From: an uncultured bacterium | GTDB taxonomy: Bacteria; CSSED10-310; CAZUFC01 | Direction: 5' to 3' | Assembly: GCA_964619725.1 (NCBI GenBank) | Contig: CAZUFC010000032.1 | Span: 1-64,000 of the forward strand | DNA: 64,000 nucleotides | In this document: in pieces, positions 3,757-50,391 of the stretch | Numbering within the stretch: the stretch's first letter is position 1 | Layout: every line of letters begins with the position of its first letter | The notes under the pieces: generated by a model | What the model was told of the DNA's origin: nothing | Seen by the model: the letters and a program-made list of their open reading frames with translations, nothing else | Database searches by the model: none | Position numbers and translations under genes: made by a program

Positions 3757-6207
3757 CTAACGCCAAAGCTCCAAAGCCAGTACGTCAATCTGCTTCTCAA
3801 TCCTGTCCAGCTCCACGCCGGCGGATATTTGCCGTCTTTTGCTTTTCTCAGAATGTGCTTTTTCTGAGAGAGCGGCCATTCGAGCATGAACAGGGTCCGA
3901 TTCGTTAAAACGGGGAATTTTAATATATTTCAATATATACATAGAGCCCATGCTTTTTCCGCCTTTCTGAGAAAAAGCGGACGCAGCGAATTGAAAAATG
4001 GCGGAATTGACGACGGCTGCCAGGTAATAGGCTTCAGCCTTACTTTTGCAATCAACGAAAGCCAGGGTCTCCTGCGGAATGATGACTCTTCCGTTCTTCA
4101 TAAAAACGGCGGCGGCTTCGATCCTGGCCATTCTGGTCCATACGGCCTTGCAGGAACTGAAAGTGTATTCCCCCACATTGAACATGGAGTAAAAAGGAGC
4201 GGCATCCTTTAATAGCCCCGTCTTTTTGTCCTTTTTCTTAAAATATCGTCGAAACAGAGCCCTTCCGCGCAGAAAGTCCTCGTAATAGCTCAGGTAATCA
4301 TATATGCCGGGACAGCGCTCCTTCAGCTCCTTTTCAGGCATGCCTTTCTTCTTCACGGGGTCCTGGACCATAATGACGTTTGCCGACGGCTGGGCATGCC
4401 ATCGTGAAATATCCCTGGGCCGCAGAAGAGGAAACAGCCTTTCTCTTTCAACGATGGATGTGCTTTGCTCGACTTTTCTTTTCGCGCCTTCGATGATGTT
4501 TCTGATTTTAGCTTTTCCTTCGGAAACGGTTTCCACGATCTCGGCCCAGTAAACCGCGTTGGCGCCGCCTGAGTTGCATCCCTCGTGAGCCTTATAGAAT
4601 GATTGTCCCAGCATGTTTTTCAAGGTCTTTAAATCGCGGGGCGATGCGGTAAGCCAGGCGGATGTCCGGTCCGCAGAATCGACCGGTTCTGCGCTCAATT
4701 TTACGCGCTCAGTTTCTTCCAGTATTTTGTTCAGGGTGAAAGAGGCGTTCAGAGCGCTTTTTTTGTCCTTCTTTTTCCACACGTAATATTCAGTAAGGGG
4801 ATAAACCGTTTCCGATCCTTTTTTCAGGTAAATAACGCTCGTCCTGTTGGCCGTGCCGGGGAACGGCTGAACTGCGGCCATATCGTCCGCTTTGAGTACT
4901 TCCAGGGGATAGCCGTCAGGCAGGACGAAACGCCTGAAACCCTGTCCGGCCCCTGAAGTTTTAAACACGGACTGAGTGAGGATGAAAGCCAGACATCCGC
5001 CTTTTTTCAAGTATTTATCAGCCGCAACGCAAGTCATCAGCATGGCCAGGTCCTTTTTTCCCTTTCCGAGGATGGAATCCATGCCCTTATGGGGAAACAA
5101 ACCATATTTCAGCCATAATTCCCTGGTCTTCTTTTTATAAACCTTCGGCAAACCCTCCCAATTGATCCAGGGAGGATTGCCCGCGACATAATCAAAGGTT
5201 CCCCAATCCTTCGGGAGGGATTGCCGGAGGATTGAGTCGAAATTGTGCACCGGAACGGATATTTCGCCTGTTTTATTTGAAATTAAGTCTGCCGTAAATA
5301 AAAGATAGTTGAACCTGGAAGTTAGAGCTGCCTGCGGATTAAGATCGATGCCGACCACTCTGTTAAATATGCTTCTCAGGAGCTGAAAATCATCAATATC
5401 CTCGCGATTCTCATCAGCCCGTATGCGACGGATGACGCTCAACAGAAAAGCCCCCGATCCGCAGGCCGGGTCCAGAAATCGCCCGTCTCTCCGGGTTCCG
5501 TGTTCCAGCGCCTGTCCGACTACCCAATCGGCCAGCCAGTCCGGCGTGTAGTACTCCCCCAGCTTATGCCGCAACCTCCTAGGAACCAGGTCCATGTAAT
5601 AACCTTTTAAATAATCGATCCGGCCTGCCTCATAGTTTAATCCCGGAAACGTAACTATCCTCTCCTTGATCAGATCGATCAATCCCTTTAAATCAATGAA
5701 AACCGAATCGTCAGGAATCTCCGTATACCAACTCAAAAAATCCCTCTCATGAAACCCGGCTAACCCGTATTTCAAAAATTCCTCCCCTGATTCGATCCGA
5801 TGGAAGAATCGTCTAACCTCCTTCGCGGAACTGCCTGTTGACGGAAAGAATCCGAATAATGAATTTTCCCCTCGAATTTCGCAGATAAGCCGGATCGTCA
5901 GCAGCTTGACAAGGCAGGCATAAAAAGTCTGAAGACTGAAAAAGAAACAGAAAGGTTCAGGAGTGGTTTGAAACGTTTTGAATTTAGGCGGAATAAAAGA
6001 AAGATCACCGGAGGAAACGCGATCAAGACAGGTCAATCGGAGATACCGGTCTTTCCATTCATCAAAGGCATTACGGATATCTGCATTTTGAGGATCATGC
6101 GCCTGCGAATAAAAATCATGAATCAGTTTCCCGGCAGGCACAGAATTTATACCGAACTCAGCAATAAATCGCAAGGAATCATATGGATCGTGTCGATTAC
6201 GTTTCAT
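3757..6207 (-). CDS. N6-adenine DNA methyltransferase (gamma class, type IIG/Eco57I-TaqI-like) with C-terminal target recognition region
   Basis: GEYYTP (motif X), FLDPACGSGAF (motif I) and FDYVAGNPPW (motif IV) in gamma order; long C-terminal TRD-like region. Confidence 0.88.
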   Translation of the reverse strand: MKRNRHDPYDSLRFIAEFGINSVPAGKLIHDFYSQAHDPQNADIRNAFDEWKDRYLRLTCLDRVSSGDLSFIPPKFKTFQTTPEPFCFFFSLQTFYACLVKLLTIRLICEIRGENSLFGFFPSTGSSAKEVRRFFHRIESGEEFLKYGLAGFHERDFLSWYTEIPDDSVFIDLKGLIDLIKERIVTFPGLNYEAGRIDYLKGYYMDLVPRRLRHKLGEYYTPDWLADWVVGQALEHGTRRDGRFLDPACGSGAFLLSVIRRIRADENREDIDDFQLLRSIFNRVVGIDLNPQAALTSRFNYLLFTADLISNKTGEISVPVHNFDSILRQSLPKDWGTFDYVAGNPPWINWEGLPKVYKKKTRELWLKYGLFPHKGMDSILGKGKKDLAMLMTCVAADKYLKKGGCLAFILTQSVFKTSGAGQGFRRFVLPDGYPLEVLKADDMAAVQPFPGTANRTSVIYLKKGSETVYPLTEYYVWKKKDKKSALNASFTLNKILEETERVKLSAEPVDSADRTSAWLTASPRDLKTLKNMLGQSFYKAHEGCNSGGANAVYWAEIVETVSEGKAKIRNIIEGAKRKVEQSTSIVERERLFPLLRPRDISRWHAQPSANVIMVQDPVKKKGMPEKELKERCPGIYDYLSYYEDFLRGRALFRRYFKKKDKKTGLLKDAAPFYSMFNVGEYTFSSCKAVWTRMARIEAAAVFMKNGRVIIPQETLAFVDCKSKAEAYYLAAVVNSAIFQFAASAFSQKGGKSMGSMYILKYIKIPRFNESDPVHARMAALSEKAHSEKSKRRQISAGVELDRIEKQIDVLALELWR

Positions 6208-47314: not shown

Positions 47315-48610
47315 CTACCGGTTGTAAATCCGCATCCCTTCGCTCGGAATGAATCCCCTTCCCCATGACGCTCTACCAGGGTCAATCTTGACCGGCTCTT
47401 CCGTTATTAGTTCAAGCTTCATAACTTCCTTTTGAAGATTGACCGTGTAAAAACCGAAGTTTTCCTCTTCCCCGCCTTTCGCTATCATCACGATATGCTT
47501 GCCGGTCGGAGAAATGTCCATAGCGCGAATATCTAAATTCTGGGCTTCGGCATCGAGAAAATGTATCAGCTCCGTATTGCCGCTGGGACTGATCAGATAC
47601 AGGCCTTTGTGCGTAATATACAGGATTTTTCTTCCGTCGGAAGACCAGTCGGCTTCCAGAACAGGTTCATTCTTCTTGGACGTCAATGCGTAATACGTTT
47701 CAAAATTGGACTCTAAAACCCATACTTTATAAGGTCCGGAAGTCTTCCCTTTCTGGTAAGCCACCAGCTTGGTTGAGTCCGGCGACCAGGCGCCCAGGCG
47801 ATCGAAACCTGAAACGTTGTAATGCGTTTCCTTGCCTGACCCGTCAGGCCGGATAATCTGGTAATTGGAGCCTTTGGATACCGCTATCAGGTCCCCGTCC
47901 TGAGAAAATACAGGATGAAAAGCAGAAGGATACGTCAGCAACTCATTCTCTCCTGTCCCGTCCAGGTTGATTACCATCAGCTTTCCTCTTTCGGCTCCCT
48001 TTTTCGTCGGACGGATGAACGCAATTTTTTGTCCCACAGCAGAAATATCAGCGTCAAAACCGTTCTCCGTTACTTTCTTCAGGTTCGATCCGTCCGCATT
48101 CACCGCATAAAGATCGCCGTTCGACGAAAAGGTGATCACTCCCAGTTCCTCCAGCTCCTGCCACGCTTCCTGCGCCTGTACGCTCGTCCGAAAACGGCTT
48201 AATACGGTCCTGTAATTCTCTCCTGCACCCGCTATGTCACCGTTGGAAAACAACTTGCGACCGTTTTCCAGATACAATACCGGCAACTGCCGCATCGCAT
48301 CGGCATAATGCTCCGTCTGACGATAATGCTTGATGATCTGCTCCATCGCATGGATTCCCGCATCATATCTCTTTATCTTGAATGATAATCTCCCCCAGTC
48401 ATAATAACACTGGCTTATCTCCTTCTTCACGTCCTCTTTATTACGAGTCTCCGGATTCTTTTCTAAAAATTCCTTATACTTCTCTATCGCATCTTCCCAG
48501 TTCTCTGCATCTCTCAGCGTTCGCGCCTCCCGAAGCAACGTCGAGTCCTCACAGCCCGCTACGAATATTATTAATAACGCCGTCAACAAAATCATCGTTA
48601 CTCTCTTCAT
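47315..48610 (-). CDS. Lipoprotein with N-terminal TPR (BamD/CpoB-like) and C-terminal TolB-like beta-propeller
   Basis: Lipobox FVAGC; TPR helices; PD40-like repeats (VNADGS, FSQDG, WSPDS, WSSDG, ISPTG). Confidence 0.82.
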   Translation of the reverse strand: MKRVTMILLTALLIIFVAGCEDSTLLREARTLRDAENWEDAIEKYKEFLEKNPETRNKEDVKKEISQCYYDWGRLSFKIKRYDAGIHAMEQIIKHYRQTEHYADAMRQLPVLYLENGRKLFSNGDIAGAGENYRTVLSRFRTSVQAQEAWQELEELGVITFSSNGDLYAVNADGSNLKKVTENGFDADISAVGQKIAFIRPTKKGAERGKLMVINLDGTGENELLTYPSAFHPVFSQDGDLIAVSKGSNYQIIRPDGSGKETHYNVSGFDRLGAWSPDSTKLVAYQKGKTSGPYKVWVLESNFETYYALTSKKNEPVLEADWSSDGRKILYITHKGLYLISPSGNTELIHFLDAEAQNLDIRAMDISPTGKHIVMIAKGGEEENFGFYTVNLQKEVMKLELITEEPVKIDPGRASWGRGFIPSEGMRIYNR

Positions 48611-48724
48611 CTCTTTCCTCCATTAGCTCGATGATTAAAATCACTCAAAACTTAAGGAAAATAATCATATCGAAAAATCCAGGATTGTCAATCCTTACTT
48701 CATCCCCCCTCTCAATCACACCAT

Positions 48725-48833
48725 ATATGAAATGACCCGGAAGGATTTCTCCTTCCGGGCTTGTTGGCGGGGATTTTGTGGGACTTTTTGGTGGGGTTAT
48801 TAGAAAGTGTTTACTTAAGGAGTGTCACCGTAC
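48725..48833 (-). ncRNA. Candidate C-rich small RNA A (~105 nt)
   Basis: Upstream TTGACA-17-TATACT; no ORF; 3' hairpin cccggaagga-GAAA-tccttccggg; homologous to 49320-49423. Confidence 0.65.
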
Positions 48834-48838
48834 TAAAA

Positions 48839-48867
48839 AGTATACCTTAATTAGCGCGTCCTGTCAA
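48839..48867 (-). promoter_or_regulatory. sigma70 promoter of sRNA candidate A
   Basis: TTGACA (48867-48862), 17 nt, TATACT (48844-48839). Confidence 0.8.
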
Positions 48868-49151
48868 TTTTTCTCGGTCGTATCTTCGTAACCTCCTGCC
48901 GGCATTATGTTCACACACTGAAAAAGGCGGCGAACCAGCGCTTGCGATTCCCGTGATCAGCTTAAAAAAACCGACTCTCAGAAACCGGCTGTCGAGATTC
49001 CGCTGTCGACGCAGGCGCGCCGAAAACTCGCGCATTCTGATCATCCTCCGAATTTTTTCTCCCGGCTTTCGAAGCGCTGCACTACAGTTTCATTTATTTT
49101 CAATATTTTACAACCAACAAAAAAACTTTTCCGTTTTTTTTCATTTTAGCC

Positions 49152-49180
49152 TTGACATTTGAAATTAGACTACGTATAAT
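49152..49180 (+). promoter_or_regulatory. Perfect-consensus sigma70 promoter of sRNA candidate B
   Basis: TTGACA (49152-49157), 17 nt, TATAAT (49175-49180). Confidence 0.88.
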
Positions 49181-49186
49181 GACTGC

Positions 49187-49432
49187 GATTTTGGATCACG
49201 TTTTTAAAATTTGACTTTTTCAATCGAGGCGTCAAAAAAAAAACGGATCAAAACGGAACTTTTTCAGAGACCGTGTGTTAGAAAGGTTGGATTTGATGAG
49301 GGAATTATTTGGGAAATCGCACTCCTAACATAAAACACTTTCTAATTATTCCCACCAAAGAAGTCCCACACAAAACCTACGGAAAAAAGCCCGAGAGTTA
49401 AAAATTTTAGCTCTCGGGTCATTCCTTTCTTG
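49187..49432 (+). ncRNA. Candidate structured RNA B (~245 nt) sharing its 3' ~105 nt with RNA A
   Basis: Consensus promoter; 5' hairpin 49189-49252; C-rich core 49320-49388; 3' hairpin gcccgagagtta / tagctctcgggt (49389-49419) followed by cattcctttctt. Confidence 0.65.
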
Positions 49433-49580
49433 AGAAAAAAACGGGACTAAAACCGGGGCAACTCTTTTTCCTGCAATATTCGACTGATTGCAATCCCCAT
49501 TAAGAAACGAACACTGCCGCACAACTCACTGTTTGACGAACTCATCGCAGTTTTCTTCATCAAGGGCCGTTTGTTCAGTT

Positions 49581-49682
49581 ATCGGCGTCGGTATCGGTAT
49601 CGTGGTCGTTATCGCAATCGGGATGGCAATCGGAGTCGCAATCGGTATCGCAATCGGGGTCGGTATAGGTATCGCCATCGGA
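49581..49682. repeat. Array of 17 degenerate RTCGNN hexamers
   Basis: atcggc gtcggt atcggt atcgtg gtcgtt atcgca atcggg ... atcgga; same unit and similar left flank (ttcagt) as module B arrays. Confidence 0.9.
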
Positions 49683-49968
49683 ATAAACAATCAGGAGGAG
49701 ATGCGTTTCTCATTATCAGATTTTCATGTCTTCTCAATAATTCAAAGCTGCGAAACCGGACCCTTGAAACACGGAAATTTGATCACCGCCCAAATTTTAC
49801 AGCCTGACAGGCGCTGCCGGGAATGGAATGCTGAATCAGAGGATTGAGCAGGAAGATTAATCGGACTTGAAAGCGAAAGGGAAAAGGGTTAATCTGTGAG
49901 AGGAAGCCGATTTAATTGGTTTATTCAGTAAAAAAGGGTATAGGGAGAAGAGAACGAAGAGAGGGAAA

Positions 49969-50391
49969 TTGATGTCTGAAATGAAGACGAAAGAGATAAG
50001 GTTAAAGACCGGCGGTTGGTCTGACATGATCGATTTATCCAGGGAAATAGATCGATTTTTAACGGAAAGCGATGCGGGCGACGGACTATTGACTGTTTTC
50101 GTACCGGGGTCCACGGCCGGAGTAACGACGATAGAGTACGAATCGGGGGCGCTTGAGGATTTGAAAAGGACGTTTGAGCGACTCGTACCGACGAATATAA
50201 AGTATGAACATGATAAGAGATGGGGCGACGGAAACGGTTTTTCTCACGTGCGGGCGGCCCTTCTGGGGCCTTCCGTCAGCATTCCCGTCCGCCAGGGCAA
50301 GCTGATTATCGGAACCTGGCAACAGGTCATAGTCGTTGATTTCGACAACAGGTCCCGTGATCGAAGAATTATCCTGCAATTAATGCAATGA
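49969..50391 (+). CDS. yjbQ: YjbQ / UPF0047 family protein (secondary thiamine-phosphate synthase-like)
   Basis: VPGSTAGVTTIEYE, YEHD, GNGFSHVRAALLGPS, GTWQQV..DFD. Confidence 0.92.
   Translation: MMSEMKTKEIRLKTGGWSDMIDLSREIDRFLTESDAGDGLLTVFVPGSTAGVTTIEYESGALEDLKRTFERLVPTNIKYEHDKRWGDGNGFSHVRAALLGPSVSIPVRQGKLIIGTWQQVIVVDFDNRSRDRRIILQLMQ

What the first reader, a model, noticed from the sequence alone, without database searches (positions are those of the whole stretch)
48725..49432. Divergent pair of homologous C-rich small RNAs (sibling sRNAs) in an ORF-free gap
Seen: two back-to-back promoters, TTGACA-17-TATACT (minus, 48867-48839) and a perfect TTGACA-17-TATAAT (plus, 49152-49180), each followed by a homologous ~105 nt block. 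A reads cactccttaagtaaacactttctaataaccccaccaaaaagtcccacaaaatcccc; B reads cactcctaacataaaacactttctaattattcccaccaaagaagtcccacacaaaacc. Both end in a hairpin with the same base (gcccg...cgggt-catt) but different, still paired, upper stems (gaagga/tccttc versus agagtta/tagctct), so structure is kept while sequence changes. Established: C-rich seed sRNAs such as RsaE/RoxS and the Listeria LhrC siblings pair with G-rich Shine-Dalgarno regions. Inference: an undescribed sibling sRNA family carrying an anti-SD motif (CACUCCU) and two CCCAC seeds. I recognise no known RNA family here.
Basis: partly seen in the sequence, partly recalled or inferred. Interest (0 to 1): 0.82.

Follow-up and report, generated by a model that had tools for sequence, protein, structure and literature searches.

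The report
Putative pair of C-rich small RNAs
Two outward-facing, related ~100-base non-coding units with strong promoters and terminator hairpins look like a lineage-specific pair of small regulatory RNAs of a familiar kind, but no expression data or relatives exist to prove it.

Summary
Two homologous blocks (48826-48727 minus; 49318-49427 plus) share 80 identical positions of 100/110, while their flanks do not align. Each ends in a strong hairpin. Nine aligned stem pairs are all kept, and two changed on both sides, which neutral drift gives about 1 time in 1000.

Three near-consensus sigma-70 promoters lie within 530 bp. One is among only 27 perfect ones in the 9.17 Mb genome, and others of those 27 drive tRNA genes. 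I found no conserved reading frame on either strand. The bodies are G-poor and predicted unpaired.

Rfam has no match. There are only two copies in this genome, none in 13 other genomes of the phylum, and none in the public contig collections. So covariation analysis is impossible, and no RNA data exist.

Best reading (about 0.5): sibling trans-acting sRNAs with a 5' CUCCU anti-Shine-Dalgarno motif and UCCC motifs, like LhrC or RsaE/RoxS in mechanism but not members of those families. The claim that CCCAC acts as an anti-SD seed is not supported. Copy B lies 134 nt from its promoter. This is a new member of a known kind, of modest interest.

The parts
48839..48867 (-). Promoter of copy A: TTGACA-17-TATACT (11/12). 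Predicted start at 48833-48831, 7-9 nt upstream of the homologous block.
   Evidence: Genome-wide rarity of such matches.
48725..48833 (-). Copy A, a predicted ~105-nt RNA. Motifs: CACUCCU 48824-48818; AAACACUUUCUAAU 48812-48799; CCCCACC 48796-48790; GUCCCACA 48784-48777. Terminator hairpin 48760-48735 (11 bp, GAAA loop), then UCAUUUCAUAU.
   Evidence: z -4.53; motifs mostly unpaired, P 0.48-0.95. Body has 4 G in 66 nt.
49152..49180 (+). Perfect sigma-70 promoter TTGACA-17-TATAAT. Predicted start at 49187/49188.
   Evidence: One of 27 perfect matches in the genome against 5 expected. Others of the 27 precede tRNA-Met and tRNA-Trp genes.
49187..49319 (+). 5' extension of copy B, about 133 nt, with no homologue in copy A. 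Function unknown. It may be removed by processing or may partly mask the motifs.
   Evidence: Complementarity to the motif region is not above shuffles (37 of 200 as good).
49320..49427 (+). Copy B homologous block. Motifs: CACUCCU 49320-49326; AAACACUUUCUAAU 49333-49346; UCCCACC 49350-49356; GUCCCACA 49363-49370. Hairpin 49389-49419 (14 bp including 2 G-U pairs), then UCAUUCCUUUC.
   Evidence: (z -4.75); hairpin -21.0 kcal/mol on this strand against -15.1 on the opposite strand..
48664..48691 (-). Context: a separate promoter-like site TTGACA-16-TATGAT between the hairpin of copy A and the TPR/PD40 lipoprotein gene (47315-48610, minus). That gene therefore need not depend on the promoter of A.

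Best explanation
The gap holds two paralogous genes for small non-coding RNAs, transcribed outward from sigma-70 promoters.

- Copy A would be a ~105-nt primary transcript (about 48833 to 48727, minus strand).
- Copy B would be a ~240-nt transcript (49187 to about 49427, plus strand). Its 3' ~108 nt is the homologous part and may be released by processing.

Each RNA is a G-poor, largely unpaired body followed by a stable 3' hairpin that ends transcription and protects the 3' end. The most likely action is trans base-pairing without a canonical Hfq. The 5'-proximal CACUCCU(U)A, which contains the CUCCU complement of the AGGAG Shine-Dalgarno core, would pair with ribosome-binding sites and block initiation, possibly helped by the UCCC-containing motifs.

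Shown: homology, boundaries, promoters, hairpin conservation, absence of a conserved ORF, predicted accessibility.
Inferred: transcription, termination, trans action, targets.

My odds: real discrete transcripts about 0.65; given that, anti-SD base-pairing about 0.6-0.7.
For: 1. Homology is confined to a unit that in copy A runs from 7-9 nt after the predicted start site to 4 nt past the hairpin. Flanks are not alignable.
2. The promoters are exceptional. There are 342 matches of 11/12 or better (178 expected) and 27 perfect (5 expected) in 9.17 Mb, and three of them lie within 530 bp here. Perfect promoters elsewhere sit directly upstream of tRNA-Met and tRNA-Trp genes (ARAGORN) and of genes I read as HU and ribosomal protein S15 (these two were not run against Pfam). 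So the consensus is used in this organism.
3. All 9 aligned hairpin pairs are standard, and 2 changed on both sides. A simple independent-mutation simulation gives about 0.001 for that outcome. G-U pairs make the B hairpin stronger on the proposed strand (-21.0 against -15.1 kcal/mol). Copy A has a GAAA loop on that strand.
4. The bodies have 4 G of 66 nt and 5 G of 70 nt. The conserved motifs are predicted unpaired (P 0.73-0.98 for most).
5. No frame is conserved. On the sense strand the frame that is open in B hits UAA in A. On the opposite strand an indel shifts the frame between the copies (my reading).
6. AGGAG lies upstream of 1721 of 6048 predicted starts. Complementarity of 8 nt or more to ACACUCCUUAAG of copy A is concentrated at start regions rather than in coding controls.
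7. The kind is well documented. LhrC1-5 are G-poor multicopy sRNAs that bind SD regions through UCCC motifs (PMC4132741, passages read). RsaE/RoxS use C-rich regions against SD sequences (PMC4409812, passages read).
Against: - There is no direct evidence of transcription.
- Only two sequences exist, so conservation cannot be separated from recent common descent except in the hairpin.
- A run of 14 identical bases is not unusual at about 78% identity (my arithmetic).
- The U-tails after the hairpins are poor (UCAUUUCAUAU, UCAUUCCUUUC), although they pass the scan rule.
- Copy B lacks a proximal promoter. In the 244-nt form its motifs are predicted to be less accessible (P 0.35-0.62).
- Duplex energies with 6048 start regions are no better than with coding controls, and no single target stands out.
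- GUGGG, the complement of CCCAC, is not enriched at start regions.
- G-poor 60-nt windows are common in this genome (1742), so composition alone is weak.
- My start sites were chosen partly by SD score, so the SD counts are partly circular.
- The B hairpin followed by UUUUUU on the opposite strand is also a good terminator for minus-strand transcription.
Confidence: 0.5

Rival explanations
1. Decaying inverted duplication. A ~105-bp segment that contained a transcription terminator was duplicated in inverted orientation. Only the hairpins are still under selection, as terminators for whatever is transcribed from the strong promoters or, for B, from the minus strand. The C-rich bodies have no function of their own.
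For: There are only two copies and no relatives. Body identity of about 80% with runs of identity is compatible with neutral decay (my arithmetic). The B hairpin is a canonical terminator on the opposite strand, with UUUUUU after it. G-poor windows are common.
Against: The homology boundaries coincide with the predicted transcript of copy A. The promoter of A would then drive a 105-nt RNA for no reason. G-U pairs favour the proposed strand in B. Two of the genome's rare near-consensus promoters point into the two copies.
Confidence: 0.15
2. Cis-acting 5' leaders. The blocks are the first part of longer mRNAs: A for the TPR/PD40 lipoprotein gene, B for genes to the right such as the UPF0047 gene. 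The C-rich, G-poor unpaired stretch serves as a Rho-loading (rut-like) site, or the CUCCU as a cis anti-SD, giving conditional premature termination or translational masking.
For: The tails after the hairpins are poor in U, so read-through is plausible. A Rho gene is present (124 bits). Both blocks point at downstream genes. C-rich, G-poor, unstructured RNA is the textbook property of rut sites (recalled, not tested).
Against: An 11/12 promoter lies between the hairpin of A and the lipoprotein gene. A ~335-bp dispersed repeat sits between B and the next credible gene. The two downstream genes are unrelated. The hairpins are strong (about -21 kcal/mol) and pass the terminator rule.
Confidence: 0.12
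3. Protein-binding or sponge RNAs. The repeated C/A-rich motifs (CCCAC, UCCC) bind and titrate an RNA-binding protein, or soak up a G-rich RNA, rather than targeting mRNAs.
For: The motifs are repeated, unpaired and conserved in both copies. No specific mRNA target was found. GUGGG is not enriched at start regions.
Against: No known bacterial titration system uses such motifs. CsrA, which is present, binds GGA, and GGA is nearly absent from these G-poor bodies. This is purely speculative.
Confidence: 0.08
4. Ends or remnants of a mobile element. The two blocks are the ~100-bp terminal inverted repeats of a ~700-bp MITE-like element.
For: The inverted arrangement. A real dispersed MITE-like repeat lies immediately next door at 49450-49785.
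Against: There are only two copies in 9.17 Mb by BLAST, nhmmer --max and a covariance model. BLAST coverage across 48611-49430 is 0-1, against 25-287 across the neighbouring repeat. I saw no target-site duplication at the outer ends (my reading). Arms 100 bp long at 80% identity are unlike active terminal repeats.
Confidence: 0.04

Closest known systems
LhrC1-5 of Listeria monocytogenes (multicopy 'sibling' sRNAs)
   Same: Several homologous copies in one genome. G-poor RNA with redundant CU-rich / UCCC motifs in unpaired regions that bind the G-rich SD region of targets and block translation. Hfq is not required (PMC4132741, passages read). Both copies here carry UCCC twice (A: GUCCCAC, AUCCCC; B: UUCCCAC, GUCCCAC), plus CUCCU.
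   Different: No sequence or Rfam match. There are two copies in divergent orientation, not five. Here there is one 3' hairpin and a long open body, whereas LhrC has two stem-loops with motifs in the loops. The organism is an uncultivated lineage from a microbial mat. Expression and targets are unknown.
RsaE / RoxS (Firmicutes)
   Same: C-rich regions in single-stranded parts pair with SD sequences. RoxS is also processed at its 5' end, which changes its target range (PMC4409812, passages read). That is a possible parallel to the 133-nt 5' extension of copy B.
   Different: No Rfam match to this or any family at gathering score. None of the three weak matches in E-value mode is RsaE. The motifs here are CUCCU, UCCC and CCCAC rather than CCCC runs. 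RsaE/RoxS is single-copy and widely conserved, whereas this pair was found in one genome only.
SdsR/RyeB (RF00111), the best weak Rfam match to copy A
   Same: About 100 nt, with an open 5' part and a 3' terminator hairpin.
   Different: 17.0 bits against a gathering score of 38, E=5.2. The match rests on the hairpin. Not a member.
Other anti-SD sRNAs recalled from memory and not checked here: cyanobacterial Yfr1 (unpaired ACUCCUCACAC), AbcR1/2 tandem siblings of Rhizobiales, streptococcal csRNAs
   Same: Short RNAs whose unpaired CUCC-type motif pairs with ribosome-binding sites. AbcR and the csRNAs occur as paralogous copies.
   Different: No Rfam match to any family at gathering score. The resemblance is functional only and comes from recall.

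Membership tests
Any Rfam 15 family (including RsaE, LhrC, SdsR/RyeB, Yfr1) | Score at or above the family's gathering threshold in cmscan | tested here: not met
   0 matches in the whole window at gathering scores. In E-value mode on 48500-49700 there were only 3 matches, E 2.2-9.6, all far below gathering: 19.6 against 55, 17 against 38, 12.3 against 49.5.
Trans-acting C-rich anti-SD sRNA (functional class) | Own promoter directly upstream of the RNA | tested here: met
   Copy A has an 11/12 promoter ending 7-9 nt before the block. Copy B has a 12/12 promoter, but 134 nt upstream. This is consensus-level evidence only.
Trans-acting C-rich anti-SD sRNA (functional class) | Intrinsic terminator at the 3' end | tested here: inconclusive
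   Strong hairpins of about -21 kcal/mol pass the scan rule, but the U-tracts are interrupted.
Trans-acting C-rich anti-SD sRNA (functional class) | Non-coding: no conserved reading frame | tested here: met
   Frames open in one copy are closed or shifted in the other, on both strands (my reading).
Trans-acting C-rich anti-SD sRNA (functional class) | Unpaired C-rich motifs complementary to the SD sequence used by the organism | tested here: met
   Met for the CUCCU core of CACUCCU: P(unpaired) is 0.95-0.97, and AGGAG lies upstream of 1721 of 6048 starts. Not met for CCCAC: GUGGG occurs at 52 of 6048 starts against 77 in coding controls.
Trans-acting C-rich anti-SD sRNA (functional class) | Discrete transcript detected | not testable with these tools
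   No RNA run holds the stretch. The four runs laid are DNA contigs.
Trans-acting C-rich anti-SD sRNA (functional class) | Demonstrated pairing with target mRNAs | tested here: inconclusive
   Duplex energies at 6048 start regions are no better than in coding controls. The longest perfect complementarity is 11 nt, in numbers close to the coding controls.
Sibling (multicopy) sRNAs | Two or more homologous copies in one genome, each its own transcription unit | tested here: met
   There are 2 copies, E=1.7e-6, with 80 identical positions, each behind its own promoter. No third copy was found.
MITE / mobile-element terminal repeats | Many dispersed copies; terminal inverted repeats with target-site duplication | tested here: not met
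   Only the 2 copies are present. I saw no direct repeat at the outer ends. The neighbouring element at 49450-49785 does meet the multi-copy criterion.
Structured RNA supported by covariation | Statistically supported covarying pairs across many sequences (R-scape type test) | not testable with these tools
   Only two sequences exist. 2 of 9 stem pairs are compensatory. A simulation gives about 0.001 under drift, which is not a substitute for a phylogenetic test.

The most novel reading that the evidence does not exclude
The pair would be the first small-RNA family of a sparsely sampled, uncultivated phylum (14 species genomes in the searchable set). It would work as a mimic of the 16S rRNA 3' tail. 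The extreme 5' end of copy A, ACACUCCUUAAG, resembles the anti-SD tail (CACCUCCUUA, recalled) minus one C. Expressed from one of the strongest promoters in the genome, it would compete with ribosomes for the subset of mRNAs with UAAGGAGUG-type ribosome-binding sites. That would be a broad, Hfq-independent brake on translation. Copy B would be held inactive by its 133-nt 5' extension until it is processed.
Probability: 0.12. Interest if true: 0.55.

Novelty: new member of a known kind. Interest (0 to 1): 0.3.

Why it matters
If confirmed, this would be an sRNA family with no Rfam counterpart in a little-known bacterial lineage from microbial mats. It would show that the strategy of C-rich, G-poor, multicopy anti-Shine-Dalgarno RNAs, best known from Firmicutes, has arisen there as well.

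It adds no new principle. Its practical value is as a seed for annotating this lineage once more genomes or metatranscriptomes appear. The control analysis also shows that classical sigma-70 consensus promoters mark highly expressed genes in this organism, which helps future annotation.

Tried and rejected
- **Relatives:**
  - BLAST against 40 relatives gave nothing better than E=0.02 outside the own genome.
  - Covariance model R1 against the 13 other phylum genomes gave best E values of 0.38 and 0.91.
  - The pattern CACTCCT-N4-8-AACACTTTCTAAT gave 2 hits in the species-genome collection and 16 in metagenome contigs. By the model, all 18 align only over the pattern itself; the best score is 20.5 bits, with no C-rich motifs and no matching hairpin. 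My arithmetic expects about 5 chance hits per 600 Gb, so I treat them as chance.
  - A synteny search of metagenome contigs with the neighbouring 431-aa lipoprotein found no relative.
- **Extra copies in the own genome:**
  - The C119 hit is a Thr/Pro-rich coding stretch.
  - The exact 16-mer in C83 lies inside a long ORF on the same strand as the RNA sense, so it is neither a copy nor a target.
- **Expression:** no RNA holder is listed. Four DNA runs of one study hold the stretch. Their contigs are identical to the window where they cover it, and no variant is listed within 48725-49432.
- **Targets:**
  - The first duplex script timed out.
  - The re-run showed no difference between start regions and coding controls.
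  - Seed counts gave only generic SD complementarity.
- **G-poor window scan for cousins:** 1742 windows were found, too common to be useful.
- **Self-masking of B by its leader:** not above shuffles, 37 of 200 as good.
- **16S 3' end of this organism:** no SSU rRNA is in the assembly, so the anti-SD sequence is recalled, not read.
- **Hfq:** only a sub-threshold match, 24.4 bits against a cut-off of 27, within a 278-aa frame. The genome is 91% complete.
- **Papers:** two searches for sibling sRNA, C-rich and Shine-Dalgarno found 0 papers and 1 review. I did not search for papers on this lineage, because its name is not known to me. Supplementary files were not consulted.

Full report
**What is there**

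The 1.36-kb gap lies between a TPR/PD40 lipoprotein gene (47315-48610, minus) and a UPF0047 gene (49969-50391, plus).

- Copy A, on the minus strand, runs from about 48833 to 48725.
- The homologous part of copy B, on the plus strand, runs from 49320 to about 49427.
- In a whole-genome BLAST, A finds B at E=1.7e-6.
- A global alignment gives 80 identical positions over 100/110 nt.
- The 60 nt on either side of the blocks reach only 34/60 identities with negative scores, so they are not alignable.

Homology is therefore confined to a unit. In copy A that unit starts 7-9 nt after the predicted transcription start and ends 4 nt past the hairpin.

**Promoters**

The scan finds three sites:

| Site | Strand | Coordinates | Match |
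|---|---|---|---|
| TTGACA-17-TATACT | minus | 48867-48839 | 11/12 |
| TTGACA-17-TATAAT | plus | 49152-49180 | 12/12 |
| TTGACA-16-TATGAT | minus | 48691-48664 | 11/12 |

The third lies in front of the lipoprotein gene.

I counted such sites across the whole 9.17-Mb assembly. There are 342 at 11/12 or better (178 expected from composition) and 27 perfect (5 expected). Three within about 530 bp is far beyond that density; my Poisson arithmetic gives about 1e-6.

As a control for whether this uncultivated organism uses the consensus, I looked at what lies downstream of the 27 perfect sites:

- Two are followed within about 15 nt by tRNA genes, tRNA-Met and tRNA-Trp, confirmed with ARAGORN.
- Two are followed by genes whose products I read as HU and ribosomal protein S15 (not run against Pfam).

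So the consensus marks strongly expressed genes here, and the promoter in front of copy B is among the best in the genome.

One point differs from a simple picture. The B block begins 134 nt downstream of the predicted start, and I could find no acceptable promoter directly in front of it. B would therefore be made as a ~240-nt RNA.

**Hairpins and strand**

Both copies end in a strong hairpin:

- A: 11 pairs with a GAAA loop, -21.7 kcal/mol.
- B: 14 pairs, -21.0 kcal/mol.

Both hairpins have the same base (GCCCG/CGGGU) and tail (CAUU) but different upper stems. Of the 9 alignable pairs all are standard, and 2 changed on both sides. A simulation of independent mutation at 20-30% per site keeps all nine pairs in 1-5% of trials. 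It keeps them with two or more double changes in about 0.1% of trials. The hairpin has therefore been maintained by selection.

G-U pairs make the B hairpin much better on the proposed strand than on the opposite one (-21.0 against -15.1 kcal/mol). The opposite strand of the B hairpin is, however, followed by UUUUUU, so it could also terminate minus-strand transcription.

The tails on the proposed strand are only moderately U-rich (UCAUUUCAUAU, UCAUUCCUUUC). They pass the scan's rule but are not textbook terminators.

**Body**

Upstream of the hairpins the RNAs are G-poor: 4 G of 66 nt and 5 G of 70 nt. They are predicted to be largely unpaired, with mean unpaired probability 0.73-0.98 for most conserved motifs in the short forms.

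The conserved blocks are:

- CACUCCU
- AAACACUUUCUAAU
- (C/U)CCCACC followed by AAA
- GUCCCACA
- the hairpin base

No reading frame is shared. The sense frame that is open for 30 codons in B meets UAA in A. On the opposite strand a 1-nt indel shifts the frame between the copies (my reading). G-poor windows as such are common in this genome (1742 windows), so composition alone proves little.

**Is it known, and is it repeated?**

- Rfam 15 gives no match in the whole window at gathering scores.
- In permissive mode it gives only three chance-level matches, the best to copy A being SdsR/RyeB at 17 bits against 38.
- BLAST, nhmmer with filters off and a covariance model built from the two copies find only these two copies in the assembly.
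- Two short extra hits turned out to be coding sequence.

By contrast, the stretch directly downstream of B (49450-49785) is a dispersed repeat with dozens of copies. It starts about 23 nt after the B unit and does not include it.

**Relatives**

The genome has no close kin in the searchable set. The nearest 13 genomes share only the phylum, and none has a match by BLAST or by the covariance model.

- A 20-base pattern scan of the species-genome collection gave 2 hits, and of the metagenome contigs 16 hits. All align to the model only over the pattern itself. This is about what chance predicts.
- A synteny scan with the neighbouring lipoprotein found nothing.
- Four DNA runs of one microbial-mat study hold the stretch. 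Their contigs are identical to the window, with no listed variant in the finding's range.

Comparative tests such as covariation or R-scape are therefore impossible for now.

**Mechanism**

The genome uses classical Shine-Dalgarno sequences. AGGAG lies within 25 nt upstream of 1721 of 6048 predicted starts, against 154 same-size coding windows. One caveat applies: my start choice used an SD score, so this is partly circular.

The CUCCU core of the 5'-proximal CACUCCU is its complement and is predicted to be unpaired. Perfect complementarity of 8 nt or more to ACACUCCUUAAG of copy A is concentrated at start regions, for example sites reading UUAAGGAGUG 6-9 nt before AUG.

Both copies do carry UCCC twice. 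UCCC is the motif used by LhrC, RsaE and other Gram-positive sRNAs against SD regions (PMC4132741 and PMC4409812, passages read).

- Whole-duplex energies do not separate start regions from coding controls.
- No individual target stands out.
- A canonical Hfq was not found (24.4 bits, below the cut-off; the assembly is 91% complete).
- Rho and CsrA are present.

The most economical reading is an Hfq-independent, anti-SD, base-pairing sRNA pair of the LhrC/RsaE kind. The presence of Rho and the C-rich, G-poor body keep a leader/attenuator reading alive.

In the 244-nt form of B the motifs are predicted to be less accessible (0.35-0.62). The complementarity between leader and motifs is not above shuffles (37 of 200). 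Processing, as described for RoxS, is only a possibility.

**Verdict**

- I put about 0.65 on real discrete transcripts.
- I put about 0.5 on the full statement (sibling trans-acting anti-SD sRNAs).
- The rivals are a decaying inverted duplication in which only the terminators matter (0.15), cis-acting leaders (0.12), a protein-binding or sponge RNA (0.08), and a mobile-element remnant (0.04).

It is not a member of any Rfam family, but it works, if it works, like a well-known class. I rate it a new member of a known kind, with interest about 0.3. The decisive data are stranded RNA end-mapping from this organism and genomes of closer relatives.

Noticed in passing
window 49450-49785 (and e.g. 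G000 C205:8030-8362, C4:25888-26171, C182:3603-3985): A dispersed, MITE-like repeat directly downstream of copy B. It has sharp boundaries, termini of the type ..CTGATCAAACCGGG.. / ..TTTGATCA.., and a central tandem array of hexamers (GGTATC/GCAATC) of variable length. In the genome, 46 loci carry the 5' flank, 29 the 3' flank and 9 both, at about 70-80% identity. 42 of 44 5'-flank hits lie outside predicted ORFs, although 81% of the genome is ORF. Only hexamer-array matches were found in 1 of the 13 other phylum genomes. No Pfam hit for the 119-aa frame across it..
   Followed up: partly
window 49576-49684: The hexamer array gives BLAST hits at 249 loci of the genome. In the four metagenome runs this bin reaches a summed contig depth of up to 290, against about 8 for the flanks, with many variant contigs and joints. 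It is a very abundant simple-repeat family in this community. Its period of 6 would read as GI / IP / YR dipeptide repeats, but no frame has a convincing start.
   Followed up: partly
window 49129-49156 / 49231-49258 and 49237-49253 / 49435-49451: A 28-nt imperfect inverted repeat (71%) brackets the perfect promoter. A 17-nt direct repeat (AAAAAAACGG.., 82%) brackets the B block plus 66 nt of leader. The second copy of that direct repeat overlaps the terminus of the MITE-like element. This may be a trace of how B was separated from a proximal promoter, or a low-complexity chance match.
   Followed up: no
window 48969-48990 (minus): A terminator-like hairpin followed by TTTTT lies in the spacer between the two promoters, with no convincing gene or promoter feeding it. 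Three terminator-like sites were found in the region against 2.0 +/- 1.4 in shuffles, so it may be chance.
   Followed up: no
G000 C1:121473(-), C28:33537(-), C128:15048(-), C172:14793(-), C3:64753(-): Several of the other 26 perfect TTGACA-N16-18-TATAAT promoters have no ORF of 80 aa or more for 150-650 nt downstream. They may drive further unannotated small RNAs or long leaders.
   Followed up: no
G000 whole assembly: No SSU rRNA gene is in the assembly. Only a sub-threshold Hfq-like match was found. Rho and CsrA are present. The lineage is isolated: the nearest genomes in the searchable set share only the phylum, 13 of them.
   Followed up: partly
L048 315-417, L049 3807-3909, L063 4113-4151, L059 1837-1889, L055 10741-10834: The 20-base pattern CACTCCT-N4-8-AACACTTTCTAAT recurs in unrelated, low-GC contigs; two of them are titled Chitinophagales and Paludibacteraceae MAGs. 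In several, the match extends a few bases further (..TAATWAT). I judged this to be chance. The surrounding genes were not examined.
   Followed up: partly
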